From Candidatus Omnitrophota bacterium (GTDB taxonomy: Bacteria > Omnitrophota > Gorgyraeia > Duberdicusellales > 4484-171), in contig JBAWWL010000008.1 of NCBI GenBank assembly GCA_037146775.1, positions 6,160-70,159 on the forward strand: a stretch of 64,000 nt of DNA, given 5' to 3'. This document shows positions 1 to 61,406 of this stretch, in pieces. The notes beneath the pieces are model-generated. The model ran no database searches. It saw only the letters and a program-made list of their open reading frames with translations, and had not been told where the DNA came from. How positions within the stretch are numbered: position 1 is the first letter of the stretch; each line of letters starts with the position of its first letter. The translations under genes and the position numbers were made by a program.

Positions 1-135
1 AAATTTTGATAGAAAATTTTTACGGAGCATCACGGAACCTATTGGCCGACGAGGTTGCGGGAAATTGGCGAAGAGAATTTCCCGCATATTCAGCCGAGTC
101 GGGAATATCCAGAGAAACCACGGGCTTTAGTCCAG

Positions 136-204
136 CAGGCCGAAGGCCTGGTGGATAGCCCAACAGGCCGAAGGGCCCGGTGGATAGCCCGCGGAGGTTC
201 ATTT
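136..204 (+). repeat. Tandem 27-nt direct repeat (caggccgaagg[c/g]cc[t/c]ggtggatagccc x2), each with a GGCC..GGCC hairpin, followed by motif agcccgcggaggttcattt
   Basis: Direct reading. The second unit differs by 2 nt. The trailing 20-nt motif recurs at 15687-15707. Confidence 0.6.
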
Positions 205-6278: not shown

Positions 6279-8201
6279 ATGTTTACTACATCGCCCATGG
6301 AATTGGTGAGTATGTTGGTATTAAAGGAAAAAACCGAAGAGGTGATATCCTATTTGATTACCTTGGGTATTTTTCATCCGGTTGATATCAGTAAGATTGA
6401 ACAGGAATTATCGGTATTATCTGTTTCTCAGATTGAAGATGAAAGCGCCGAATGGCAGGCGTTTGAGATAAAGTTACGCGATACGCTACGTAAGTTCAAT
6501 AGTTCTCCAGCCGCGAGTAAAGAGGCCGAATCGCTGCCGGTTACATTCATAAAAAGTACTTTTGTCACCATTGACGAGAAGCTAGAGCCGCTTATTTCGC
6601 AAATAAACGAAGCTCGGGAGGCGTTAAAGATAAACGAGTCTATGCGTGCCCAGGTAAAAGATTATTTCCTTTTCCCCATTAAAAAAAGCTCACTTTATAC
6701 TTTTCTGGAAGTAACCTTAGGCCGAGTCGAAGAAAAAAACATCGCGGCCCTTGAACGCAGCCTGAAAGACATCCCTCATTTGGTATATACCCTTAAGAAA
6801 GAGCTGGGAAAAGTTACCGCTATCCTGATTGGCTTGAAACGAGACAAAGCGCTTCTTGACCGTGTATTGCATGATTTTGCTTGGGAGAAGGTAGAATTTC
6901 CCGAAGAACATAAAGAGCTTTCCAAAGATGTTGAAGCGCAGATACAGGCAAAAATAGAGGAGAGTAAAAAACGCATCGAAACCGCAAACGCTGCCATACG
7001 GGAGCTCGCGAATACTTTTCAGGGAACACTATCTAAGATACGTTCGTGTATTATTCTAAAAAAGTCTTTATTGTATGCTAAAAAATATTTGTATACGACC
7101 GATAGGACCGTGATACTGTCTGGATGGGTGCCACGTGAAGAGAAGGAACGCCTGATACGCGAAATTAAGAAAATTGCCGGCGCTTCTTATGTTGAAGGTA
7201 AGAAAGCCGAAGACGTGGATATATCTAAGGAAGAAATACCCGTCCAAATACAACACTGGACGCTCTTTAAGCCTTTTGAACTATTGATTAATTCTTATGG
7301 TGTTGTGCGTTACGGGACGATTGACCCGACAATCTTTGTTGCTTTTAGCTTTCTTTTGATGTTTGGAGCGATGTTTGGCGATTTAGGGCACGGCCTTATT
7401 TTCGTGTTAACGGGAATATTATTATTAAGCTGTAAAAAACCAAAACTAAAGCAAGCTTCGGCATTACTTTTGTATTGCGGTATAAGCTCGTCAATTTTCG
7501 GAATTTTATACGGTAGTTTTTTTGGTTACGAAAAAATATTGCCCGCCATATGGATAAAGCCCATGCTTAACGTTATCGAAGCGTTTCGGGTAAGTATTAT
7601 TTTCGGTATTACTTTGATTACTCTCGGTATTATTATTAATATTGTTAACGCATTGCGCGATAAGGATTACGTGAAGGCGGTATTTGATAAAGCCGGCCTT
7701 GTCTCCGGTATCGTTTATATTACCGCCATAGCGTGGTTAAGCAAAAATTTCGTATCTACCGGCCGCGTTTCGCCCCTGTACCCCATAGTAATATCTGGAG
7801 GATTCTTGCTTTTATTTTGTAAGCCATTTATTGAGTTATTATCAAAAAAGAAGAAAAATAAAGAAAGCTTATTTGTGTCTTTTATGGAAAGTACTGTGGA
7901 TATTTTAGAAATTGTTATGGGTTATCTGGCAAACACAGTTTCTTTCATCCGTATTGCCGCATTTGCCTTGGCGCATGCCGGATTGTTTTTGGCTATTTTT
8001 GAACTTTCGCGTCTATTACGTCAAACCGGAGGCGCGGTTTTATCTCTGGTAGTTATTATTTTTGGCAATATACTAATTATATTGCTTGAAGGTTTGGTGG
8101 TTGGAATACAGTCACTTAGGCTTAACTATTATGAATTCTTCTCGAAATTCTTTATCACAGGAAAGCATATTTACCAGCCGTTGACATTTAAAGAGCGTTA
8201 G
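6279..8201 (+). CDS. V/A-type ATPase subunit I (a-subunit, membrane)
   Basis: 640 aa. Hydrophilic N-terminal half and a C-terminal half with multiple TM helices, including a conserved Arg-containing helix. Operon context. Confidence 0.8.
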   Translation: MFTTSPMELVSMLVLKEKTEEVISYLITLGIFHPVDISKIEQELSVLSVSQIEDESAEWQAFEIKLRDTLRKFNSSPAASKEAESLPVTFIKSTFVTIDEKLEPLISQINEAREALKINESMRAQVKDYFLFPIKKSSLYTFLEVTLGRVEEKNIAALERSLKDIPHLVYTLKKELGKVTAILIGLKRDKALLDRVLHDFAWEKVEFPEEHKELSKDVEAQIQAKIEESKKRIETANAAIRELANTFQGTLSKIRSCIILKKSLLYAKKYLYTTDRTVILSGWVPREEKERLIREIKKIAGASYVEGKKAEDVDISKEEIPVQIQHWTLFKPFELLINSYGVVRYGTIDPTIFVAFSFLLMFGAMFGDLGHGLIFVLTGILLLSCKKPKLKQASALLLYCGISSSIFGILYGSFFGYEKILPAIWIKPMLNVIEAFRVSIIFGITLITLGIIINIVNALRDKDYVKAVFDKAGLVSGIVYITAIAWLSKNFVSTGRVSPLYPIVISGGFLLLFCKPFIELLSKKKKNKESLFVSFMESTVDILEIVMGYLANTVSFIRIAAFALAHAGLFLAIFELSRLLRQTGGAVLSLVVIIFGNILIILLEGLVVGIQSLRLNYYEFFSKFFITGKHIYQPLTFKER

Positions 8202-8251
8202 GATAGAATCAAAAATTCAGCGAGTTAGTTGTTTTATTGGCGCAATATTGA

Positions 8252-8596
<345 letters not shown>

Positions 8597-8718
8597 TTGC
8601 GCAGATTACACAGATTTTAAAAAGATTACATAGATGTAAGAACGCCGTCCATAAAACGTCTTAGCTTTTAATCTGCGTAATCATTTTTCTAATCGGTGTA
8701 ATCGTTTAAAAAAATAGA
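8597..8718 (+). promoter_or_regulatory. GATTAC-rich intergenic element containing conserved ~35-nt motif aatctgcgtaatc-N-ttttcta-tc-g-gtaat
   Basis: The block aatctgcgtaatcatttttctaatcggtgtaatcg is shared almost exactly with 21217-21250. It also has an inverted partner gattgcgcagatt upstream. Confidence 0.5.
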
Positions 8719-9021
8719 ATGAATTTTTTTTGTATAGCCGAAAAAGAAAGTAGTCTGGGCTTTAAATTCAGCGGTATTGAGGTACGCGAGGCTAATTCAC
8801 GTATCCAGGCGCAAGAAGCCTTACGGGTGGCTTCCGCAATAGAAGGCATAGGTATTATTATTATTACAGAAAAATGTGCATCTTGGATACGGGAAGAAAT
8901 AACTCCCTTGCTTTACCGCCAAGAGCTGCCGTTGGTGCTGGAGATTCCTTCACGTGGCTCTCGGGGGCAGCGTAAAAGTGTCGGCGAGTTTTTGAAAGAA
9001 ATTGTCGGAGTGGGGATGTAA
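8719..9021 (+). CDS. V/A-type ATPase subunit F
   Basis: 100 aa, subunit F-like (IGIIIITE core). Lies between K and E. Confidence 0.6.
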   Translation: MNFFCIAEKESSLGFKFSGIEVREANSRIQAQEALRVASAIEGIGIIIITEKCASWIREEITPLLYRQELPLVLEIPSRGSRGQRKSVGEFLKEIVGVGM

Positions 9022-9022
9022 G

Positions 9023-9667
9023 ATGCATAAAAAATTACCAATAGATACAACTAAAGAGAACGCTCAGGAATTGCTTAAAAAAATTAATCTTGAAGCTGAG
9101 GCGGAAATAGCGGATATAAACGCCATTACGAAGCGGGAGGTAGACAAGATTTTTGCGCAAGCTAACAAAGAAGTAGAAGCAAAAAAAGAGATAGATTTAA
9201 GCCAACTTCAAAAGGAAATAGAAGCCTTGAGAGAAAAAAACTTTTCTACGGTTACTCTTGAGAAAAAAAGAGTAATTTTAGGTGAACAAAACGCTTTTAT
9301 AGAAAAAGTGTTTTGCGCGGTTAAGGACGAGGCGGCGCGGTTTCGTCTTTGTGCCGAGTATGTGGCATTCCTGGAGAGAGCTATCTTGGAGGCTGTTGCG
9401 GTTATTGACAGCGAGCATATGGTTGTCTCCTATTCATCGCTTGATGAGAAAATATTCAGCGCAGAATTTATCACCAATGTGCAAAAAAATTGTGCGGTGA
9501 AATTTGGAAAAAAAATTGTTTTTAATTTTCAAAAAAGTGATTTTAATGACATGGGTGTTACTGCTGCGTCTTGCGACGGTCATTTATGCTACGATAATAG
9601 ATTTACCGCACGCTTAAAGCGCGCCTACGAAGAAATATACGCACAGTTGCAGAAGGAGATAGCGTAA
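9023..9667 (+). CDS. V/A-type ATPase subunit E
   Basis: Charged coiled-coil N-terminus and a C-terminal globular domain. The track ORF uses TTG at 9002, but the ATG at 9023 has a proper RBS. Confidence 0.6.
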   Translation: MHKKLPIDTTKENAQELLKKINLEAEAEIADINAITKREVDKIFAQANKEVEAKKEIDLSQLQKEIEALREKNFSTVTLEKKRVILGEQNAFIEKVFCAVKDEAARFRLCAEYVAFLERAILEAVAVIDSEHMVVSYSSLDEKIFSAEFITNVQKNCAVKFGKKIVFNFQKSDFNDMGVTAASCDGHLCYDNRFTARLKRAYEEIYAQLQKEIA

Positions 9668-11422
9668 ATGAAAGTATTAGGCAGGGTTTATAAAGTAGTG
9701 GGCCCGGTGGTGGAGCTGGAAGCCGTAGAGGGTTTACGTATGCTTGATATGGTGGAGGTTGGCCAGGAGCATTTAGTAGGTGAGGTAGTGCACCTGAAAG
9801 AAGATAAAGCATATGTACAAGTATACGAAGAAACCACATCTCTTAAAGCAGGAGATCCGGTTTATGCCCAAGGGTTTCCTTTGTATGTTGAATTAGGCCC
9901 GGGGCTTTTAGGCAATATTTATGACGGTATTCAAAGGCCATTAGAAGATATCGCAGCCAGAGAAGGTTTTTATATCGGCAGGGGAGTACATGTTGCGGCA
10001 TTAGACAGAAAAAAGAAATGGAATTTTACTCCATCTCGACAGTGTAACGAACAGATTAAGCAGGGCGAGGCGTTGGGGACGATTCCTGAAACCGGTCTGG
10101 TTACGCATAAAATACTAGTCCCGATTGGTGAATCTGGCCGCTTAAAATGGATTGCTGCCTGCGGTGATTATTCTTTGGAAGAAAAGATTGCGGTAATAGA
10201 AACTGTAAACGGAGAAAAAGATATATATATGTATCAACGTTGGCCGGTGAGAAAGCCAAGGCCTTATCTCGAGCGGGAAGTTGTTAACGAGCCTTTAATT
10301 ACCGGGCAGCGTATTATTGATACTTTGTTTCCCGTGGCTAAGGGTGGCTGCGTAGCGGTGCCCGGAGGTTTTGGTACCGGCAAGACCGTGGTCCAGCATC
10401 AGCTGGCAAAATGGAGCAATGCCGACGTGGTTATTTTCGTCGGCTGCGGAGAACGTGGAAATGAAATGACCGATGTCTTGCTAAACTTTCCTAAGCTTAT
10501 TGATCCGCGTACAGGAAGGCCGCTGTCAGAACGAACTATATTTATCGCCAATACATCGAACATGCCGGTGGCGGCACGTGAAGCGAGTATCTATACGGGG
10601 ATTACGCTTGCTGAGTATTATCGGGATATGGGATATAATGTTGCGCTTATGGCAGATTCTACCAGCCGCTGGGCAGAGGCGTTACGGGAGTTATCGGGCA
10701 GGCTTGAAGAGATGCCGCTCGAGGAAGGATTTCCGGCCTATTTACCATCGCGTTTGGCTGAATTTTATGAGCGCGCAGGAAAAGTAAAAACATTAAATCA
10801 CGAGGATAGCTCTATTACCATCATTGCTTCGGTTTCTCCTCCGGGGGGAGATTTTTCTGAACCGGTTACTTCTCACACGAAGCGGTTTATCCGTTGTTTT
10901 TGGGCTTTAGATAAAGATTTAGCCAACGCGCGCCATTATCCTTCCATAAGCTGGATTGATAGTTATTCCGAATATCTCGATGATATTAAAGGCTGGTGGC
11001 ATAAAAATATTGATGAGGGGTGGTTAAAGTTACGTTATGAGATGATGGAGCTTTTACAGAAGGAACAACGTTTACAGCAGGTGGTTAAACTGGTTGGTTC
11101 AGACGTATTGCCGCAAACGCAGCGTTTAATCTTGGAAGTATGTTATCTTTTCAAGAATGCATTTTTGCAGCAAAGTGCTTTTGATGATGTTGACGCTTAT
11201 TCGTCAGCCCGTAAACAGTTTTTAATGTTGAAAATCATATTACAGTTTTATCATAAAGCAGAAATATTTATTAAGAAAGGAATGACCGTGACAGAAATTC
11301 GTGAAATTCCGATATATAATGAAATTATGCGCATGAAGCTTACCTATAGCGAAAATGATATTGACAAGGTGTTGGGATTACTTGGACGGATAGAAGAGTC
11401 TTTTGAAGGGTTGGGCTTCTAA
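9668..11422 (+). CDS. atpA: V/A-type ATPase catalytic subunit A
   Basis: Walker [10 protein letters not shown]. Non-homologous insert region. 584 aa. Confidence 0.9.
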
Positions 11423-11423
11423 G

Positions 11424-12824
11424 ATGAAAGATTATAGTTTAAGAGAATATATTGGTTTGGATGAAATAGTCGGCCCGGTATTTATTGCCCGCAACATCCA
11501 TAATGTTGGCTATAACGAATTAGTGGATATAGTTGACGAGAATGGTAAGTTGCGCTTAGGTATAACCCTTGAAGTTGGCAAGGGTTATGCGGTGGTAGAA
11601 GTTTTAGGCGGAACAAGTGGCCTTTCTTTAAAAAACTGCAGGGTACGTTTTAAAGAAAAACCGCTCATGATTGGCGTGTCGGAGGATATGTTGGGTAGGG
11701 TTTTCGACGGATTAGGTAATCCTTTGGATGGTATGCCAAAACCAGCCTATGATGAACTTGTAAACGTAAACGGTTTTGCGATTAATCCTACTGCGCGCGA
11801 TTATCCAAAGAATATAATTGAAACCGGTATTTCTTCGATCGATGTGATGAATACATTGGTAAGAGGGCAGAAACTTCCTATATTTTCCGGAAGCGGACTT
11901 CCCCACGATTTGATTGCAACTCAGATAGCCCGGCAGGCGCGCGCCAGCGGTGAAAGTTTTTGCGTTATCTTTGTGGCGATGGGGGTTAAGTATGATACGG
12001 CAAAATTTTTTATTAATAGTTTTGAGGAATCGGGAGTATTGGAGCGTGTTGCGATGTTTTTAAGTCTCGCAGATAGTCCTTCGATTGAACGCACGCTTAC
12101 GCCTCGTTTGGCGCTTAGTTGCGCAGAGTTTTTAGCATTTAAGAAAAATATGCACGTTTTAGTGATTATGACTGATATGGCGAACTATTGCGAGGCGTTG
12201 CGGGAACTTTCCACCATACGAGGAGAAATCCCGGCACGCAAAGGTTACCCCGGATACCTTTACAGCGACTTGGCGAGTTTATATGAGCGCGCGGGAATGA
12301 TAAAAGGAATAAACGGTTCAATTACGCAATTACCCATTCTTACTATGCCCAACGACGACATTACGCACCCTATTCCCGATTTAACAGGATATATTACGGA
12401 AGGGCAGATTGTTTTAGAACGAGAATTATATAGCCGGGGAATTTATCCGCCGATCGCTGGTTTACCTTCGTTGTCTCGTCTGATGAAGGATAATATCGGT
12501 AAAGATTTAACCAGGGAAGATCATCCGGCACTGGCATCGCAGCTTTTTGCCTGCTATGCGCGCGTCAAAGATATCAGGGCGTTAGCGTCCATTATCGGCG
12601 AAGAAGAATTGTCTCCGCTCGACCATCTTTACCTAAAATTCGGCGATGCTTTCGAAAAAAGATTTTTAAACCAAGGGTATCATGAGCGCCGCACCCTGGA
12701 GGATAGTTTAGACTTGGGATGGGAAGTTCTTTCGATATTCCCAACCAACGAACTCGTGCGTATACGCGAGGATTTGCTTACTAAGTATTACCGAAAAAAT
12801 GCGAGCAAACATAGCAGCGACTAA
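11424..12824 (+). CDS. atpB: V/A-type ATPase subunit B
   Basis: Regulatory B-subunit family (degenerate P-loop, SGSGLPHD). ATG immediately after the A-subunit stop. Confidence 0.9.
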
Positions 12825-22619: not shown

Positions 22620-22718
22620 TGGCAAATGTCAAAATAAAAATGACAAATAATAAAGCTCAAATGACAAAACGAACAGTTTTGACATTTGAATTTTGTCATT
22701 TGAAATTTTCTGTACTCA
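22620..22718 (+). promoter_or_regulatory. TGACAAA/TTTGTCA repeat-rich operator-like region
   Basis: aaatgtcaaaa...aaatgacaaa...aaatgacaaaa...ttttgacattt...ttttgtcattt gives nested inverted and direct repeats over about 90 nt, immediately upstream of the MBL-fold gene. Confidence 0.5.
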
Positions 22719-23573: not shown

Positions 23574-24623
23574 ATGCCAAGATCAACTAAGAAAAAATTT
23601 GAGCGCATAACTATCAAGTCCGAGTCAGGTAGAGAAAAAGAGCCGGTCAAAATCACCGTTATCGATTACGATGAGGCAAACTTTCAGCAGAAGGAAGTTT
23701 CTTCGGTCGAAGAATGTTTTATTTTCAGAGACAGGCCTACAATAACCTGGATCAATGTTGATGGTATCCATAAGCCAGGGGTTATCGAAAAACTTGCCAA
23801 CTGTTTCTGTCTGCATCCTTTAATTATCGAAGATATATGTGATGTTGATCAGCGGCCAAAATTCGAGGATTTAGGCAGCTATATCTATATCGTTATAAAA
23901 ATGCTTTCTTATGAAGCGGAAAACAGCGAAATAAAGATTGAGCAGATGAGCCTTGTTTTAGGTAATAATTTTGTTCTTTCTTTTCAGGAGACGGTAGGCG
24001 ATGTTTTTGGGCCTATCCGGGATCGCATCAAAAATAGTAAAGGCCGCCACCGTAAAATGGGCGCAGATTATCTGGCATATTCCTTGATAGATGCAATAGT
24101 AGATAACTATTTCAACATCCTCGATGAGTTCGGTGAGCGCATTGAGTTTCTTGAAGAAGAGATAATTTCCAGGCCCGATCAGCAGGTTTTAAAAGAGGTC
24201 TATAACCTTAAAAGGGAGATTATTTTTCTGCGTAAGTCTATTTGGCCGCTGAGAGAACTTGTGCGTTCCCTTGAACGCATTGAATCAGCGTTAATCAGGG
24301 ATACCACGCGAATTTATTTGAGAGATATTTATGACCATGTAATACAGATCAGCGATTCGATGGAGGTTTCCAGGGAAATGCTTACGGCTATGATTGAAAT
24401 GTATCTATCCAGTCTAAGTAATAAGCTTAATGAAGTAATGAAGGTTTTGACGGTTATCGCCACAATATTCATGCCTCTTACTTTTATTACCGGTATTTTT
24501 GGGATGAATTTTAAATATATTCCCGGTTTAGAGCGGTTTTGGGGTTTTCCTGCCGCCTTATTGATTATGCTTATCGTGGCTTTGTTTATGATAAGATATT
24601 TTCAGAGGAACCGGTGGATATAG
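23574..24623 (+). CDS. corA: Magnesium/cobalt transporter CorA
   Basis: C-terminal two TM helices with a GMNF motif (GIFGMNFKYIP). 349 aa. Confidence 0.85.
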   Translation: MPRSTKKKFERITIKSESGREKEPVKITVIDYDEANFQQKEVSSVEECFIFRDRPTITWINVDGIHKPGVIEKLANCFCLHPLIIEDICDVDQRPKFEDLGSYIYIVIKMLSYEAENSEIKIEQMSLVLGNNFVLSFQETVGDVFGPIRDRIKNSKGRHRKMGADYLAYSLIDAIVDNYFNILDEFGERIEFLEEEIISRPDQQVLKEVYNLKREIIFLRKSIWPLRELVRSLERIESALIRDTTRIYLRDIYDHVIQISDSMEVSREMLTAMIEMYLSSLSNKLNEVMKVLTVIATIFMPLTFITGIFGMNFKYIPGLERFWGFPAALLIMLIVALFMIRYFQRNRWI

Positions 24624-24635
24624 TAATAAACAGAG

Positions 24636-24760
24636 GACAGATGACAGAAAACAGAAGACAGAGGAGATAAGGCAGATTTTTGACTTCTGACACCTATTTT
24701 CTGACTTCTGATATCTGACGTCTGACTTCTGACATCTGTTTTAATTTGGTAATCGGCCCC
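24636..24760. repeat. Inverted pair of heptanucleotide tandem arrays (RRCAGAR x5 then CTGACNT x8)
   Basis: aacagag gacagat gacagaa aacagaa gacagag ... ctgactt ctgacac ... ctgactt ctgatat ctgacgt ctgactt ctgacat. The two halves are reverse complements and can form a long imperfect hairpin just after the corA stop. Confidence 0.7.
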
Positions 24761-24873
24761 ATCGTCTTCCCGCCTGCACCCACGGTAGTGGGTTCGGCGG
24801 GATCCCGCAGAATCCGCGATAGCGGATGCATGCGGGAAGCTTAACGCTTACTGTTAGTAAGATTAAAATTATA

Positions 24874-25164
24874 ATGTGGTATGTTTATATCATCCAGAAT
24901 GATACAAACAAACGTTTTTATATAGGTTCAACCAATAATATAACCCGAAGGTTAGCCGAACATAATAGAAGCAAGAAGTGCTCTGTTACTCATTTCGGAA
25001 AATACTTTTTGATTCATCAAGAAGAATTTTCGAATATTAAAGAAGCAAGAGTGCGAGAACAGCAAATCAAATCGTATAAGGGCGGTAACGCATTCAAGAA
25101 ATTACTTCGCGAGCGCGCTGGCTTAAATATCATAAATACGGCCCCATCGTCTAGCTTGGTCTAG
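24874..25164 (+). CDS. GIY-YIG nuclease family small protein (YhbQ/UPF0213-like)
   Basis: YVYIIQNDTNKRFYIGSTNNITRRLAEHN is a GIY-YIG motif. The ORF tail overlaps the first 25 nt of the tRNA, so the true stop is uncertain. Confidence 0.65.
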   Translation: MWYVYIIQNDTNKRFYIGSTNNITRRLAEHNRSKKCSVTHFGKYFLIHQEEFSNIKEARVREQQIKSYKGGNAFKKLLRERAGLNIINTAPSSSLV

Positions 25165-25214
25165 GATGTCAGCTTCTCAAGCTGAACACACCGGTTCAAA
25201 TCCGGTTGGGGCTG
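25140..25214 (+). tRNA. tRNA-Glu (anticodon CUC)
   Basis: Manual fold. Acceptor GGCCCCA/TGGGGCT. D-stem GTCT/GGAT. Anticodon stem TCAGC/GCTGA with loop TTCTCAA. 4-nt variable loop. T-arm ACCGG-TTCAAAT-CCGGT. Discriminator G. Confidence 0.8.
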
Positions 25215-25224
25215 TTTTTATAAT

Positions 25225-25258
25225 TCAATCCCTCTACTTACATAGAGGGATTTTTTAT
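25225..25258 (+). terminator. Rho-independent terminator after tRNA-Glu
   Basis: tcCCTCTActtacaTAGAGGGa stem followed by TTTTTTATT. Confidence 0.65.
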
Positions 25259-25581: not shown

Positions 25582-26388
25582 ATGTTGGTAAGGATATTTA
25601 TTATTGGGGCGTTGTTGGCGGTGTTTCTGGTTACGGCTGCCGATAATGCGCCGGCTCAACAGCAGGCGCAGGGAGGGTCTCCGGCATTGGCAGAAGTCAG
25701 CCCGCCGGTTGTGCATCAGCGCGCTCTCAGTGTGCTCAAGCGTATGAGCGATACTCTTTCTCAGGCAAAGACAATCCGTTTTAGCGCCCGCAGCATAGTG
25801 CCCGTAAGAACTCCGTCAGGGATGTGGGCCAGTCTTTATGGGACTTCGCGGGTAGTCAAGGAAGGCGCCAGCAAGCTTTTTGCCCAAACGCGGGGAGATT
25901 TTTTTCCGTATGATTTCTATTTTAACGGCACGACGATAACGGCTTATTCGCCTACGAAGAATTTATATGCCGAGAGAAATGAGCCCGGCACGGTAAATAA
26001 CCTGATTGAAAATGCTTACAAAGAAGAGGGCAGATCATTTCCGTATGCTGATATACTTGTTGCCGAGCCTTACAGCGTTTTGACCGAAGGTTTGATAAAT
26101 GCCGTATACGTCGGACAGTCGGTGATTGATGGTGTTAAGACCGACCATCTGGCTTTTTCGAATAAGGGAGTCCAATGGCAGATATGGGTTGGCGTCCAAG
26201 ATCATTTGCCGCGTTTGGTGGATGCGACATATCTTGATGACGCCAGCGAGCCCAGCTATACGGTTGAGTTTTCTGACTGGAAACTTAACGAGCCTGTGGA
26301 GGCAGGGCAGTTTATTTTTAAAAATAAATCAAAGGCGGTAAAGGTCGAGTTCCGTAAGCCTGCTGCATTCTGGCCGCGGCAGTCTTGA
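25582..26388 (+). CDS. Secreted DUF2092-like (LolA-fold) protein
   Basis: Signal peptide. Pattern resembles the periplasmic DUF2092 family. Start moved to the ATG at 25582; the track start is GTG at 25576. Confidence 0.45.
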   Translation: MLVRIFIIGALLAVFLVTAADNAPAQQQAQGGSPALAEVSPPVVHQRALSVLKRMSDTLSQAKTIRFSARSIVPVRTPSGMWASLYGTSRVVKEGASKLFAQTRGDFFPYDFYFNGTTITAYSPTKNLYAERNEPGTVNNLIENAYKEEGRSFPYADILVAEPYSVLTEGLINAVYVGQSVIDGVKTDHLAFSNKGVQWQIWVGVQDHLPRLVDATYLDDASEPSYTVEFSDWKLNEPVEAGQFIFKNKSKAVKVEFRKPAAFWPRQS

Positions 26389-26426
26389 GAGAAGAAAAAG
26401 CGGAGATATTACCGGAGGAGTATGTT

Positions 26427-26942
26427 ATGAAAAAGATAAAAATAACGATTATAGCCGTTGCGGCTGTAGCAATGGTTTTCTTTGGCGCGCACGATGTGCT
26501 AGCGCGCGGTGGAGGTGGAGGGCACATGGGAGGCGGCGGCGGCGGTGGCTGGCACGGCGGAGGAGGCGGTGGCGGCGAGCACGGTGGCGGTGGCGGCGGG
26601 CACGGACAAGGCGGCCACAGGCATAATAACAATAATAATTATTACTATGGCGGCGGCGGGTGGGGTTACGGATTTGATGATGAAGCTGTAGTCAACGTGG
26701 ATTTGGATACTGATTCACGGCCGTCTACTGTTGTGGTGGAGCAGCCTACTACCGAAGTAGTCCAGCAGCCTGTACCAACAGCAGATGCGCCTGTCGGAGC
26801 TCAGGTGACAATGCTTCCTTCCGGAGCTGAGGGCAGGATTATCGGCGGCGCGCAATTTTATATAAGCGGTAATACCTGGTATAAGCCGTATTTCGGTGCA
26901 AGCGGCGTATATTATGAGGTTGTATCTCCTCCGAACACTTAG
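26427..26942 (+). CDS. Secreted Gly/His-rich low-complexity protein
   Basis: Signal peptide, then (G6-7-[HWE]H) x4, HRH, N5Y3, G4WGYG, and a structured-looking C-terminal domain. ATG at 26427 with GGAGGAG upstream. The track start at 26385 is TTG. Confidence 0.6.
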   Translation: MKKIKITIIAVAAVAMVFFGAHDVLARGGGGGHMGGGGGGGWHGGGGGGGEHGGGGGGHGQGGHRHNNNNNYYYGGGGWGYGFDDEAVVNVDLDTDSRPSTVVVEQPTTEVVQQPVPTADAPVGAQVTMLPSGAEGRIIGGAQFYISGNTWYKPYFGASGVYYEVVSPPNT

Positions 26943-40052: not shown

Positions 40053-40486
40053 AGAAACCAGAGACCAGAAACCAGAGGACAGAAGTCAGAAGACGGAAGA
40101 CAGAGGTCAGAGGTCAGAAGTCAGAAGACAGAAGACAGAGGACAGAGGACAGAAGGCAGAGGGGAAAGATAATAGTTCCGAAGTTAAAATTTGACGAAAA
40201 GGGGCTTATCCCTGCAATCGTTCAAGATGTAAAAAACGGCGATGTACTTATGATCGCTTATATGAATGAAGAGTCTCTGCGTATCACCTTGAAAGAAAAA
40301 AGGACTTGTTTTTATTCTCGTTCGCGCCAAACCCTGTGGAGAAAAGGCGATACCAGCGGGCATATCCAGAAAGTGAAGGCTGTGTGCTATGATTGTGATT
40401 GCGACGCGCTTCTGATTAAAGTTGAGCAAACAGGCGTGGCGTGTCACACTGGAGAGAGCAGCTGTTTTTATAGAAAAATTATTTGA
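40049..40486 (+). CDS. hisI: Phosphoribosyl-AMP cyclohydrolase with N-terminal heptamer-repeat-encoded extension
   Basis: HisI core [15 protein letters not shown]...C-x-x-C metal site. The first ~35 codons are a 15 x 7-nt repeat array encoding [21 protein letters not shown]... The true start could be downstream and non-canonical. Confidence 0.75.
40055..40159 (+). repeat. Heptanucleotide tandem array (15 units; aaaccag/aggacag/aagtcag/aggtcag...), 105 nt in-frame
   Basis: Direct reading. Same repeat family as 24636-24760 and 60612-60671. Confidence 0.75.
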
Positions 40487-60543: not shown

Positions 60544-61406
60544 GCACACGTGTTGCGTTTAAGAAAATGGTCGCCTCGGGCAACGACTTTGTTCTTTTGG
60601 AGGCCGGGAGTAAGAAGTCAGAAGTCAGAGGTCAGAGGTCAGAGGACAGAGGACAGAGGTCAGAAGGTAGAGCGTTGAGCAGTTTAGCGAAAAAAATGTG
60701 TGATAGGAAATACGGAATTGGAGCAGACGGATTATTGGTCATGGAAACGTCAAAAACCGCGGATGCAAGAATGCGCATTTTTAATGCTGACGGGTCAGAG
60801 GCCCAAATGTGCGGGAATGGCGCACGCTGCGCTGCTTTGTGGGTAAACGAGAAATTAAGAATTAAAGACAGGAGATTAAAGATAGAAACCAAGGCAGGCC
60901 TCTTAAGAGCGGAGGTCTCTGGTGAACAGGTGCGGATACAGCTAACCGACCCCAAAGATGTCAGGTTACATGTGCCTATTACGGTAAACAACCGGCCGCT
61001 TAAGGTTCATTTTATTAATACCGGCGTACCACATACAATTATTTTTGTTGCAGGTATCGAGTTGATCGATGTGGATGGCCTGGGCCGATTAATCCGTCAT
61101 CATCGTTATTTCAAACCAGCGGGAACAAATGTTGATTTTGTACAGGTATCCGGCGATGATCTTATAAGGGTACGTACGTACGAGCGTGGAGTTGAAGCGG
61201 AGACTCTTGCGTGCGGTACCGGATCGGTCGCGGCGGCAATCATGTACAGTTATCAACTCCCGGTCCGTAACCGCTACCACATAAAAGTATTGACTCAGGG
61301 CGGCGAAGTATTGAGTGTTTATTTTGAAAAAAAAGATAATGCATTTATAAATGTGTGGTTGGAGGGGAAAGCCCGGAATGTATTTGAGGGAGGTTATTAT
61401 GTTTAA
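60540..61406 (+). CDS. dapF: Diaminopimelate epimerase with 20-aa heptamer-repeat-encoded insertion
   Basis: ASGNDFVLL and NADGSEAQMCGNGARC catalytic Cys motifs. Insertion [21 protein letters not shown] lies between the first strand and the GIGADG region. Confidence 0.85.
   Translation: MSTRVAFKKMVASGNDFVLLEAGSKKSEVRGQRSEDRGQRSEGRALSSLAKKMCDRKYGIGADGLLVMETSKTADARMRIFNADGSEAQMCGNGARCAALWVNEKLRIKDRRLKIETKAGLLRAEVSGEQVRIQLTDPKDVRLHVPITVNNRPLKVHFINTGVPHTIIFVAGIELIDVDGLGRLIRHHRYFKPAGTNVDFVQVSGDDLIRVRTYERGVEAETLACGTGSVAAAIMYSYQLPVRNRYHIKVLTQGGEVLSVYFEKKDNAFINVWLEGKARNVFEGGYYV
60612..60671 (+). repeat. Heptanucleotide tandem array (about 8.5 units; aagtcag/aggtcag/aggacag), 60 nt in-frame within dapF
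   Basis: Direct reading. Same family as 24636-24760 and 40055-40159. Confidence 0.75.

What the first reader, a model, noticed from the sequence alone, without database searches (positions are those of the whole stretch)
24636..24760. Dispersed heptanucleotide repeat family; here as two inverted arrays forming a long hairpin after corA
Immediately after the corA stop there are 5 tandem units of RRCAGAR. After an 11-nt spacer come 8 units of CTGACNT, the reverse complement. The pair could fold as a long imperfect hairpin and may act as a terminator or attenuator. The same heptamer (AGGTCAG/AAGACAG) appears as in-frame arrays inside hisI and dapF. That makes it a dispersed element family, not a local slippage product.
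Basis: seen in the sequence. Interest (0 to 1): 0.7.

Follow-up and report, generated by a model that had tools for sequence, protein, structure and literature searches.

The report
Inverted heptamer microsatellite hairpin after corA
Two back-to-back runs of a 7-base repeat (CAGARGW and its reverse complement) form a 108-base hairpin-shaped insert just after the corA gene of an Omnitrophota bacterium. It belongs to an already described class of bacterial 7-base repeats, and close relatives lack it, so it is unlikely to be an essential control element.

Summary
Five CAGARNN units (24631-24665) face about eight NNYTCTG-type units (24680-24738). The RNA hairpin is -41 kcal/mol, against -28.8 for shuffles (z -3.4). 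The same heptamer forms in-frame arrays in dapF (60606-60671) and at the start of hisI (40053-40165). There are 22 three-unit matches in the window against 0 expected.

It is a heptanucleotide microsatellite of the STRR / Xanthomonas GGGAATC kind. That class is already known to occur as convergent inverted pairs a few bases after stop codons, and its function is unknown.

New here:
- The CAGARGW family occurs in an Omnitrophota MAG and in many other phyla.
- Polarity is strict: 29 inverted pairs are CAGA-arm-first and none are reversed.
- In the fetched loci there are 497 period-7 arrays, against at most 38 for any other period from 5 to 12.
- CorA relatives at 92% and 76% identity lack the hairpin. 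In L307 corA runs straight into tRNA-Glu after about 20 nt; in L245 only the first 12 nt of that tRNA follow, then unrelated sequence. The 108-nt palindrome is therefore a recent, precise gain, and at least part of the T-rich run after it is older than it.

The most likely account is slippage plus strand switching producing a largely neutral repeat, with at most an incidental terminator or 3' stabiliser effect. It is a new member of a known kind, of modest interest.

The parts
24631..24679 (+). 5' (purine-rich) arm: five CAGARNN units (24631-24665) followed by two decayed units (GATAAGG, CAGATTT)
   Evidence: Sequence; TRF period 7; pattern matches against 0 expected
24680..24738 (-). 3' (pyrimidine-rich) arm: about 8 units reading CAGANGT on the minus strand. 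Six have a perfect core (24697-24738). The CTGAC units carry TGA in all three frames.
   Evidence: Inverted repeat I1/I4, 73-78% complementary.
24631..24738 (.). The whole palindromic insert (108 nt). It is absent from CorA relatives at 92% and 76% identity and is bounded exactly by CAGAGG...CATCTG.
   Evidence: Alignment A1; downstream sequences of 57 CorA-relative loci; fold at -41 kcal/mol, z -3.4
24739..24754 (+). Older T-rich spacer TTTTAATTTGGTAATC. Its TTTTAAT is shared with relative L307, and the TGTTTT junction that leads into it with L245. It would act as a U-tract if the hairpin terminates transcription.
23574..24623 (+). corA (Mg2+/Co2+ transporter), the gene whose 3' flank received the insert
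   Evidence: Pfam PF01544, E 1.3e-67. The identical protein is on NCBI MAG contig GCA_964613555.1.
40053..40165 (+). About 16 units of the same heptamer family forming the first ~38 codons of the hisI ORF (AGAAACC/AGAGACC grading into CAGARGW)
   Evidence: The PRA-CH domain begins at residue 68.
60606..60671 (+). About 9 units of the same family in frame in the dapF loop after the GNDF strand. They encode [20 protein letters not shown].
   Evidence: The array lies at the same site as (AAGTCAG)4 in L243.
22637..22710 (.). AT-rich look-alike: decayed (GACAAAT)n facing (ATTTGWC)n between the NYN/YacP-like gene and the MBL-fold gene. It forms a hairpin.
   Evidence: TRF periods 7 and 14; RNA fold -23.5 against -12.8 kcal/mol for shuffles, z -3.9

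Best explanation
This is a pair of convergent heptanucleotide microsatellite arrays, with unit CAGARGW and its reverse complement. It belongs to the same kind of element as cyanobacterial STRRs and the Xanthomonas GGGAATC repeats.

Shown:
- It is a 108-nt palindromic insert, specific to this lineage, between the corA stop and the T-rich spacer that in relative L307 leads straight into tRNA-Glu(CTC).
- The same unit forms translated, frame-preserving arrays in dapF and, probably, hisI.
- Such arrays are abundant in some Omnitrophota and occur across many phyla.
- When paired, they always have the CAGA arm 5' on both strands, and they usually sit 4-24 nt after a stop codon.

Inferred:
- Arrays grow, shrink and homogenise by replication slippage that is peculiarly efficient at period 7.
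- The inverted partner arises by strand switching of the nascent strand, which would give the fixed polarity.
- Inside genes only the stop-free purine strand and changes in multiples of three units survive. They encode hydrophilic R/Q/S/E/K-rich loops.
- At corA the element is largely neutral or selfish DNA. Once transcribed, it folds into a long imperfect 3' stem-loop beside a U-rich run. That stem-loop may pause or partly terminate transcription, or shield the corA mRNA 3' end. Any such effect is incidental and has not been conserved by selection.
For: Identity as a heptamer simple-sequence repeat:
- TRF period 7.
- 22 pattern matches against 0 expected.
- Only this unit forms clear period-7 arrays in the window.

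Period-7 specificity:
- 497 period-7 arrays against at most 38 for any period from 5 to 12 in 2.1 Mb of fetched loci.

Slippage and concerted evolution:
- Perfect (AAGTCAG)4, (AAATCAA)4 and (AATTACC)4.5 arrays lie at the same dapF site in three Omnitrophota.
- 25 of 117 DapF homologues show 7-residue periodicity in that loop, against 0-7 for other offsets.

Recent gain:
- L245 (92% CorA identity) and L307 (76%) lack the insert and have only a 20-21-nt spacer after corA. In L307 a full tRNA-Glu follows.

Recurrent architecture:
- 29 CAGA-first pairs against 0 reversed.
- Arms at the same locus are 0.67 identical at variable positions, against 0.40 between loci.
- For pairs of any unit, the 5' arm is purine-rich in 30, balanced in 6 and pyrimidine-rich in 3.
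- In roughly half of 21 pairs an ORF of at least 90 aa ends 4-24 nt from the hairpin.

Prior art with the same anatomy:
- Xanthomonas has 70-75 convergent pairs, on average 28 nt after the upstream ORF, with function unknown (PMC4692102).
- STRR hairpins have been suggested to stabilise or terminate transcripts (PMC2670836).

Fold:
- -41 kcal/mol, z -3.4.
- A register that abuts the U-run costs 2.8 kcal/mol more.
Against: - No copy-number polymorphism could be observed. Only one genome of this lineage is available, and DapF is identical in the two assemblies that carry it. Slippage at this locus is therefore inferred by analogy.
- All clear arrays in the window share one unit family. Purely independent local slippage from arbitrary seeds does not predict that, and another Omnitrophota locus, L242, shows five different units in 20 kb.
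- The insert has razor-sharp boundaries, and no clear seed is visible in either relative (L245 has only a weak AGAAAAC...CATGTGTTTT resemblance). That looks as much like an insertion event as like gradual growth.
- Strict polarity could also reflect selection on function and not the mode of origin.
- There are no expression data.
Confidence: 0.6

Rival explanations
1. This is a selected intrinsic, possibly bidirectional, terminator or attenuator. It ends corA transcription and insulates corA from the downstream GIY-YIG gene and tRNA-Glu.
For: - It forms a stable hairpin on both strands.
- UUUUAAUUU follows on the + strand and UUUAUUACUAU on the - strand.
- It begins 8 nt after the stop codon.
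- Family members elsewhere also sit just after stop codons.
- With the purine arm first, the last-made RNA is pyrimidine-rich, which gives a weak RNA:DNA hybrid in both directions. This last point is inference.
Against: - It is absent from CorA relatives at 92% and 76% identity. In L307 corA and tRNA-Glu are 20 nt apart and are probably co-transcribed.
- At least part of the U-run is older than the insert.
- Most of the 19 pairs from other genomes have no T-run after the stem.
- The stem is about 35 bp with periodic mismatches, unlike the compact canonical terminator this genome uses after tRNA-Glu at 25227-25252.
- The simple terminator scan does not flag it.
- The look-alike at 22637-22710 ends 10 nt before the next gene's start codon. 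A strong terminator there would silence the MBL-fold gene and corA.
Confidence: 0.15
2. This is a mobile palindromic element, or the product of a dedicated enzyme that recognises or synthesises CAGA-type heptamers. It was inserted as a unit, in the manner of a REP/BIME or MITE, or by templated repeat addition at a DNA break.
For: - The 108-nt insert has exact boundaries and no clear seed in relatives.
- A single unit family occupies all clear arrays in the window.
- Polarity is strict, 29 to 0, which is what addition of the same repeat to both 3' ends of a break would give.
- The same CAGARGN subfamily makes up 41% of CAGA-core arrays across loci with GC 0.32-0.69, against 12.5% expected.
- It is also present on IMG/VR viral contigs.
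Against: - There is no target-site duplication and no conserved non-repeat terminus.
- Arm lengths, spacers (4-100 nt) and unit variants differ at every locus.
- The two arms here carry systematically different unit variants (GA- against GT-type), so they are not a fresh inverted copy of each other.
- Orthologous arrays change unit sequence in place, which fits slippage.
- No transposase or RAYT gene was seen near the element, although the window was not fully annotated.
Confidence: 0.15
3. The arrays are multivalent binding sites for a protein. One option is a single-strand binder of the Csp, S1, CsrA or Hfq type on the purine-rich RNA. Another is a double-stranded DNA binder that reads opposed CAGA sites. 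The hairpin would then be secondary.
For: - Some pairs share only the CAGA core between arms and would fold poorly (the lowest arm identities are 0.11-0.44).
- Orientation of the core is fixed.
- CspB binds one heptamer per protein, and this was proposed for TAACTGA repeats (PMC4679880).
- CAGAGGA units contain the GGA motif preferred by CsrA (own knowledge).
Against: - Unit sequences drift freely at orthologous sites.
- About a third of arrays lie inside unrelated housekeeping ORFs.
- No candidate protein was identified.
- Most pairs are more complementary than chance.
Confidence: 0.07
4. The arrays are an assembly or binning artefact of short-read metagenomics.
For: - The source is a MAG.
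- Repeats often break or distort assemblies, and several fetched arrays lie at contig ends.
Against: - The arrays keep dapF and hisI in frame.
- The unique flanks match relatives exactly.
- The same arrays occur in isolate genomes (Streptomyces, Vibrio, Niastella, Herpetosiphon) and in chromosome-level assemblies.
- An identical DapF, array included, is found on two contigs.
Confidence: 0.02

Closest known systems
Xanthomonas GGGAATC / Nostoc GGGGA(C/T)T heptameric simple-sequence repeats (Rehm et al. 2015, PMC4692102)
   Same: - The unit is 7 nt and the repeats are dispersed over the genome, typically in a few units.
- They lie much closer to the upstream ORF's end than to the next gene.
- 70-75 pairs per genome lie in convergent orientation, with the purine/G-rich arm first, and have stem-loop potential.
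- Length and sequence vary between close species.
- Associated genes are housekeeping genes of all classes.
- No function has been found.
   Different: - The unit here is CAGARGW, which cannot form a G-quadruplex.
- The host is an uncultured Omnitrophota.
- In this window 2 of 3 loci are inside ORFs and are translated, whereas 89-93% of the Xanthomonas repeats are intergenic.
Cyanobacterial STRR (short tandemly repeated repetitive) heptamers, such as the hairpin-forming STRRs between hupS and hupL and upstream of hoxW (PMC2670836; original description by Mazel et al. 1990, from own knowledge)
   Same: - They are 7-bp tandem units at many intergenic sites.
- Inverted sets are predicted to form hairpins near the 3' end of the preceding gene.
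- Proposed roles are transcript stability, translational coupling or termination.
- STRR2, TTGGTCA, matches the GAGGTCA phase of this unit at 5 of 7 positions (own comparison).
   Different: - They occur in a different phylum and the unit is not identical.
- STRRs are described as intergenic. In-frame arrays in core biosynthetic genes are not a described feature.
TAACTGA direct repeats of marine Beggiatoaceae, cyanobacteria and Bacteroidetes (MacGregor 2015, PMC4679880)
   Same: - It is a heptamer family shared by distant phyla with no evident transfer mechanism.
- It contains a TCAG/CTGA core.
- Some copies lie inside ORFs in the one orientation that lacks stop codons.
   Different: - Those repeats sit mostly 1 to a few nt upstream of start codons, in forward orientation.
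- There are 2-6 copies per set, and only one inverted set was found in 170.
- The role proposed for them is translational.
REP/BIME elements of enterobacteria and pseudomonads (own knowledge)
   Same: - They are extragenic imperfect palindromes just after stop codons.
- They are dispersed and often occur as inverted pairs.
- They act as 3' mRNA stabilisers or weak terminators.
- They are present or absent between close strains.
   Different: - A REP is a single 20-40-nt palindrome with a conserved GTAG head, mobilised by RAYT transposases.
- It is not built from tandem 7-nt units and never lies in frame in genes.
Rho-independent (intrinsic) terminators
   Same: A stem-loop followed by a U-rich run at the end of a gene.
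   Different: - The stem is about 35 bp, with a mismatch every 7 nt and only moderate GC.
- Several folding registers are possible.
- At least part of the U-run was not acquired with the stem.
- It is not conserved in relatives.

Membership tests
Heptanucleotide simple-sequence repeat (STRR-like / Xanthomonas-type) | Head-to-tail tandem units of exactly 7 nt, at least 3 copies | tested here: met
   TRF period 7 at 24630-24662, 24681-24738, 40073-40160 and 60613-60664; 22 matches against 0 expected
Heptanucleotide simple-sequence repeat (STRR-like / Xanthomonas-type) | The same unit recurs at several dispersed loci of one genome | tested here: met
   Three loci (four arrays) in 64 kb, all CAGARGW. 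Only one contig of the genome could be read.
Heptanucleotide simple-sequence repeat (STRR-like / Xanthomonas-type) | Occurs as convergent inverted pairs close to the 3' end of the upstream ORF | tested here: met
   The pair begins 8 nt after the corA stop. Polarity is 29 to 0 in fetched loci. This matches PMC4692102.
Heptanucleotide simple-sequence repeat (STRR-like / Xanthomonas-type) | Length and sequence vary between close relatives (slippage dynamics) | tested here: inconclusive
   Presence or absence against the 92% and 76% relatives, and different homogenised units at the orthologous dapF site. No strain-level copy-number alleles were available.
Intrinsic terminator | Compact GC-rich stem (about 5-20 bp) with a 3-8-nt loop, followed directly by a U-tract | tested here: inconclusive
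   The stem is long and mismatched, and the consensus scan does not flag it. In the minimum-free-energy fold the U-run lies 7 nt from the stem; a register 2.8 kcal/mol higher places them together.
Intrinsic terminator | Transcript 3' ends map to the U-tract | not testable with these tools
   No RNA data are available for this MAG.
Intrinsic terminator | Conserved at the orthologous gene end in relatives | tested here: not met
   Absent in L245 and L307, and none of the 57 CorA-relative loci examined shows a heptamer hairpin after the stop.
REP/BIME | Single 20-40-nt palindrome with a conserved head tetranucleotide, linked to a RAYT transposase | tested here: not met
   The element consists of tandem 7-mers with variable arm lengths. 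No RAYT was seen near it, and the whole genome was not searched.
MITE | Terminal inverted repeats around a unique core, flanked by a target-site duplication | tested here: not met
   The flanks TAATAAA and TTTTAAT are not a direct repeat, and there is no unique core.
Phase-variation contingency locus | A repeat in the promoter or 5' coding region of a surface or variable gene, where unit changes switch expression | tested here: not met
   The hosts are corA (3' flank), hisI and dapF, which are housekeeping genes. A change of one unit would simply inactivate them.
Rfam structured RNA families | A match at gathering score to any of 4227 covariance models | tested here: not met
   Only tRNA-Glu passes. 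Sub-threshold hits on the hairpin are eukaryotic snoRNA and miRNA models and are chance matches.

The most novel reading that the evidence does not exclude
Period-7 arrays may not be passive slippage products. They could be made by a conserved, strand-asymmetric molecular process. One candidate is nascent-strand switching that occurs only when the newly made strand is the purine/CAG-containing one. Another is templated addition of heptamers to both 3' ends of a break.

Either would explain four things:
- why 7 nt beats every other period by more than 10-fold;
- why inverted pairs are CAGA-first 29 to 0 on both strands;
- why the corA insert has exact boundaries with no clear seed in relatives;
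- why the same CAGARGN unit recurs across loci from GC 0.32 to 0.69 and on viral contigs.
Probability: 0.12. Interest if true: 0.75.

Novelty: new member of a known kind. Interest (0 to 1): 0.35.

Why it matters
For this locus it matters little. The hairpin is a recent and probably dispensable addition to the corA 3' flank.

The family is more useful.
- Why bacteria favour 7-nt repeats has been an open question since 2007, and no function is known for any heptamer family.
- Omnitrophota offer dense, translated arrays in core genes.
- The strict arm polarity seen here is a simple rule that can be tested genome-wide. It can discriminate between an origin by strand switching, selection for termination, and enzyme-driven insertion.

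There are practical consequences as well.
- Such arrays disturb gene calling: the full 145-aa hisI product is not on record.
- They insert disordered R/Q/S/E/K-rich peptides into enzymes.
- They are likely break points in MAG assemblies.

Tried and rejected
- Rfam at gathering score and at E-value thresholds gave nothing for the hairpin or its neighbour. Only chance hits to eukaryotic snoRNA and miRNA models appeared.
- A literature search for the literal repeat strings returned only eukaryotic primer and microsatellite hits. No paper links Omnitrophota with heptamer repeats.
- I tried to use collection scans as counts, to compare the CAGA core with control cores.
- A search with the hisI array peptide against 5.8 billion proteins found 10 word-sharing candidates and none significant, so it was uninformative. 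An earlier attempt was too short.
- An exact look-up of the 145-aa HisI found it is not on record.
- The second assembly carrying identical CorA and DapF could not be retrieved separately, so copy numbers could not be compared.
- My first impression that nearly all DapF homologues carry a 7-residue-periodic loop was too strong. The count is 25 of 117.
- CRISPR, MITE, REP and phase-variation readings were rejected on anatomy (see the membership test).
- The idea that the two hairpins (22637-22710 and 24631-24738) bracket a mobile MBL-corA unit was dropped. The relatives keep corA next to tRNA-Glu (L245: its first 12 nt) without the downstream hairpin. Their upstream side was not examined.

Full report
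**1. The observation**

The window is a 42% GC, almost entirely plus-strand gene array. It comes from an NCBI MAG named Candidatus Omnitrophota (GCA_964613555.1, contig CAZTHQ010000038.1).

corA (23574-24623, Pfam CorA E 1e-67) ends with TAG. Eight bases later come five CAGARNN units (24631-24665). Two decayed units follow, and then about eight units of the reverse complement up to 24738.

The arrangement is far from chance. (CAGANNN)2CAGA matches 22 times in the window against 0.00 expected. The matches fall at only three places: the corA flank, 40059-40163 and 60619-60667.

The RNA folds to -41.0 kcal/mol, against -28.8 +/- 3.6 for shuffles (z -3.4). The other strand gives -37.5. As DNA it gives -18.4 (z -3.05).

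The stem has a mismatch roughly every seventh base. The left arm uses ...GA-CAGA units and the right arm ...GT-CAGA units, so the two arms are separately homogenised arrays and neither is a fresh copy of the other.

**2. The other copies in the window**

The dapF array (60606-60671) lies in frame in the loop after the GNDF strand. It adds [20 protein letters not shown] relative to the closest homologues.

The hisI array (40053-40165) begins at codon 2 of an ORF whose ATG overlaps the hisF stop. No other canonical start lies upstream of the conserved [16 protein letters not shown], so the array is probably translated. The 145-aa product is not on record in public annotation, which suggests the gene caller was disturbed.

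A decayed AT-rich version, (GACAAAT)n facing (ATTTGWC)n, forms a second hairpin at 22637-22710, one intergenic region upstream (-23.5 against -12.8 kcal/mol, z -3.9).

At a 76% match threshold no other period-7 array exists in the window.

**3. Relatives show the corA hairpin is a recent gain**

A metagenome scan with CorA returned 80 loci. I inspected the sequence after the stop codon in 57 of them.

- The closest is L245, 92% identical over all 349 residues. It has 21 nt after the stop and then GGCCCCATCGTC.
- L307, 76% identical, has 20 nt and then a complete tRNA-Glu(CTC) that starts with the same bases.
- The window's ...CATCTG|TTTTAAT TTGGTAATC GGCCCC aligns with TTTTAAT AAGCTAAATT GGCCCC in L307 and with CATGTGTTTT GGCCCC in L245.

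The extra DNA is therefore exactly 24631-24738, that is CAGAGG...CATCTG, 108 nt. At least part of the T-rich run after it is older than the insert.

None of the 57 CorA-relative loci inspected has a heptamer hairpin after the stop. Those 80 loci, 577 kb in all, contain only two weak period-7 arrays. The enrichment is lineage-specific.

**4. What kind of element it is**

The hits span Streptomyces, Vibrio, Planctomycetota, Acidobacteriota, Bacteroidota, Verrucomicrobiota, Desulfobacterota, cyanobacteria, Omnitrophota and others. IMG/VR viral contigs saturated as well.

- The commonest units are CAGAAGA, CAGAGGT, CAGAAGT, CAGAAGG and CAGAGGA, which is the window's family.
- 41% of CAGA-core arrays are CAGARGN, against 12.5% expected, in loci with GC from 0.32 to 0.69.
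- In the 2.1 Mb fetched there are 497 period-7 arrays, against at most 38 for any other period from 5 to 12.
- The 176 arrays not selected by the search pattern have diverse units, with enriched TCA and CAG cores.
- In loci with GC at or below 0.52, 59 arrays are outside long ORFs, 25 are inside ORFs with the CAGA strand as sense, and 10 are antisense. 16 of 46 intergenic arrays lie within 30 nt of an upstream stop.

In Omnitrophota the dapF loop is a long-lived array site. L243 has (AAGTCAG)4, L244 has (AAATCAA)4 with the same 3' flank, and L242 has (AATTACC)4.5. L242 also has six other heptamer arrays, of four further units, within 20 kb. 25 of 117 DapF homologues show 7-residue periodicity there, against 0-7 at other offsets.

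Perfect homogeneity within an array, combined with different units between lineages, is the signature of slippage with concerted evolution.

**5. A recurrent architecture with a strict polarity**

Among all fetched loci plus the window, arrays of opposite strand within 150 nt of each other are CAGA-arm-first in 29 cases and TCTG-first in 0.

An X...rc(X) arrangement reads the same on both strands. This polarity therefore cannot come from the direction of replication or transcription. It is intrinsic to the sequence.

- Arms at the same locus are more alike at the variable positions (0.67) than arms from different loci (0.40). A minority share little beyond the core.
- For pairs of any unit, the 5' arm is purine-rich in 30, balanced in 6 and pyrimidine-rich in 3. 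The pyrimidine-rich cases are still CAG-first.
- In roughly half of 21 pairs an ORF of at least 90 aa ends 4-24 nt from the hairpin.
- A T-run after the stem is not general.

**6. What is already known**

Heptamers are the over-represented long simple-sequence repeat class in many bacteria. A link to the DNA length held by the polymerase has been proposed (Mrazek 2007, as summarised in PMC4679880 and PMC4692102).

Rehm et al. describe 186 and 183 GGGAATC arrays in two Xanthomonas genomes. Among them are 70-75 convergent pairs with stem-loop potential. They lie on average 28 nt from the upstream ORF and 160 nt from the next gene, vary between species, are mostly transcribed, and have no identified function.

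Cyanobacterial STRR heptamers form hairpins near gene 3' ends. Transcript stabilisation, translational coupling and termination have been suggested for them. TAACTGA repeats are shared by distant phyla.

I found no paper on the CAGARGW unit or on heptamer arrays in Omnitrophota.

The element is therefore a new member of a known kind. The cross-phylum polarity count and the abundance of in-frame arrays in core genes extend what has been described.

**7. How it most likely works**

Shown: it is a 7-nt tandem repeat family; the palindrome at corA is a recent and precise gain; it can fold stably; arrays persist and homogenise in place at dapF.

Inferred:
- Arrays grow by period-7 slippage.
- The inverted partner arises by switching of the nascent strand, which would yield a fixed polarity if switching happens only when the nascent strand is the purine/CAG one.
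- Within genes only the stop-free strand survives, because CTGAC units carry TGA in every frame. Only changes of three units keep the frame.

Function at corA:
- A register 2.8 kcal/mol above the minimum free energy puts the stem against UUUUAAUUU. Some pausing, termination or 3' protection is therefore plausible.
- Several points argue that any such effect is incidental: the hairpin is absent in close relatives, corA and tRNA-Glu are only 20 nt apart in L307 and so probably co-transcribed, other family members lack U-tracts, and the look-alike hairpin ends 10 nt before the next start codon.

I put 0.6 on this overall account. The rivals get 0.15 for a selected terminator, 0.15 for a mobile or enzyme-made element, 0.07 for protein-binding arrays and 0.02 for artefact.

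**8. Verdict**

Novelty: new member of a known kind. Interest: 0.35.

The most novel reading still open is a dedicated strand-asymmetric mechanism that makes heptamer arrays. I give it about 0.12 probability and an interest of 0.75 if true.

Noticed in passing
window 24755-25215: A second, independent insertion lies between corA and tRNA-Glu(CTC). The first 13 nt of the tRNA, GGCCCCATCGTCT, occur twice (24755-24767 and 25140-25152). They flank about 370 nt that hold a GC-rich double hairpin and a 96-aa GIY-YIG ORF (24874-25164; Pfam GIY-YIG E 1e-14; weak match to group I intron endonucleases). The ORF runs into the tRNA gene. Relative L245 has different sequence inserted after the same 12 nt, and L307 has an intact tRNA-Glu at that position. 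This looks like a small homing-endonuclease-type element that targets the 5' end of tRNA-Glu.
   Followed up: partly
window 24766-24839: Two adjacent GC-rich hairpins, CCCGCC..GGCGGG and TCCCGC..GCGGGA, each capped by an inner stem with a 4-nt loop. They lie upstream of the GIY-YIG ORF in a 42% GC genome. The fold is -57.6 kcal/mol against -37.4 for shuffles (z -5.2). There is no Rfam match, and it is a single copy in the window.
   Followed up: partly
DapF homologues P0005, P0011, P0025, P0057, P0058, P0059, P0062, P0063, P0090, P0110 (alignment): The same DapF loop in other Omnitrophota carries inserts such as PALPAGRQA, PCLSGRQA, LPRRQAGK and PPCLAGRQ. These read like an in-frame GC-rich palindrome of the type CTGCCGGCAGGCAG. 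That would be a second family of small repeat elements tolerated at this site. The DNA was not examined.
   Followed up: no
L242 8196-11724 (JGI Ga0078972_1001925): This Omnitrophota locus has seven perfect heptamer arrays within about 3.5 kb (8196-11724) of the 20-kb locus. The units are ACGCTAT, CTCAATA (in lysA and again in dapF), AATTACC, ATCAAAT and GTAGTGA. Three of them lie inside dapF alone.
   Followed up: partly
L307 505-2527: In the relative with 76% CorA identity, tRNA-Glu(CTC) is followed by a 532-aa large serine recombinase on the opposite strand. This tRNA gene appears to be an integration hot spot in the lineage.
   Followed up: no
window 26385-26942 (repeats at 26506-26605): A 185-aa ORF has a long Gly-rich tract, GGGGGHMGGGGGGGWHGGGGGGGEHGGGGGGHGQGGH, encoded by GGC-rich repeats of 21-30 nt. 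It lies next to a DUF2092 periplasmic protein gene and has a weak DUF6515 match.
   Followed up: no
window 1-64000: 60 of 61 long ORFs are on the plus strand, including clusters for his, trp, lys/dap and arg-type biosynthesis genes. This co-orientation is unusually strict for 64 kb.
   Followed up: no
window 128-190: TRF reports a 29-nt tandem repeat, 2.2 copies at 88% match (TAGCCCAACAGGCCGAAGGCCCGGTGGA), at the very start of the window.
   Followed up: no
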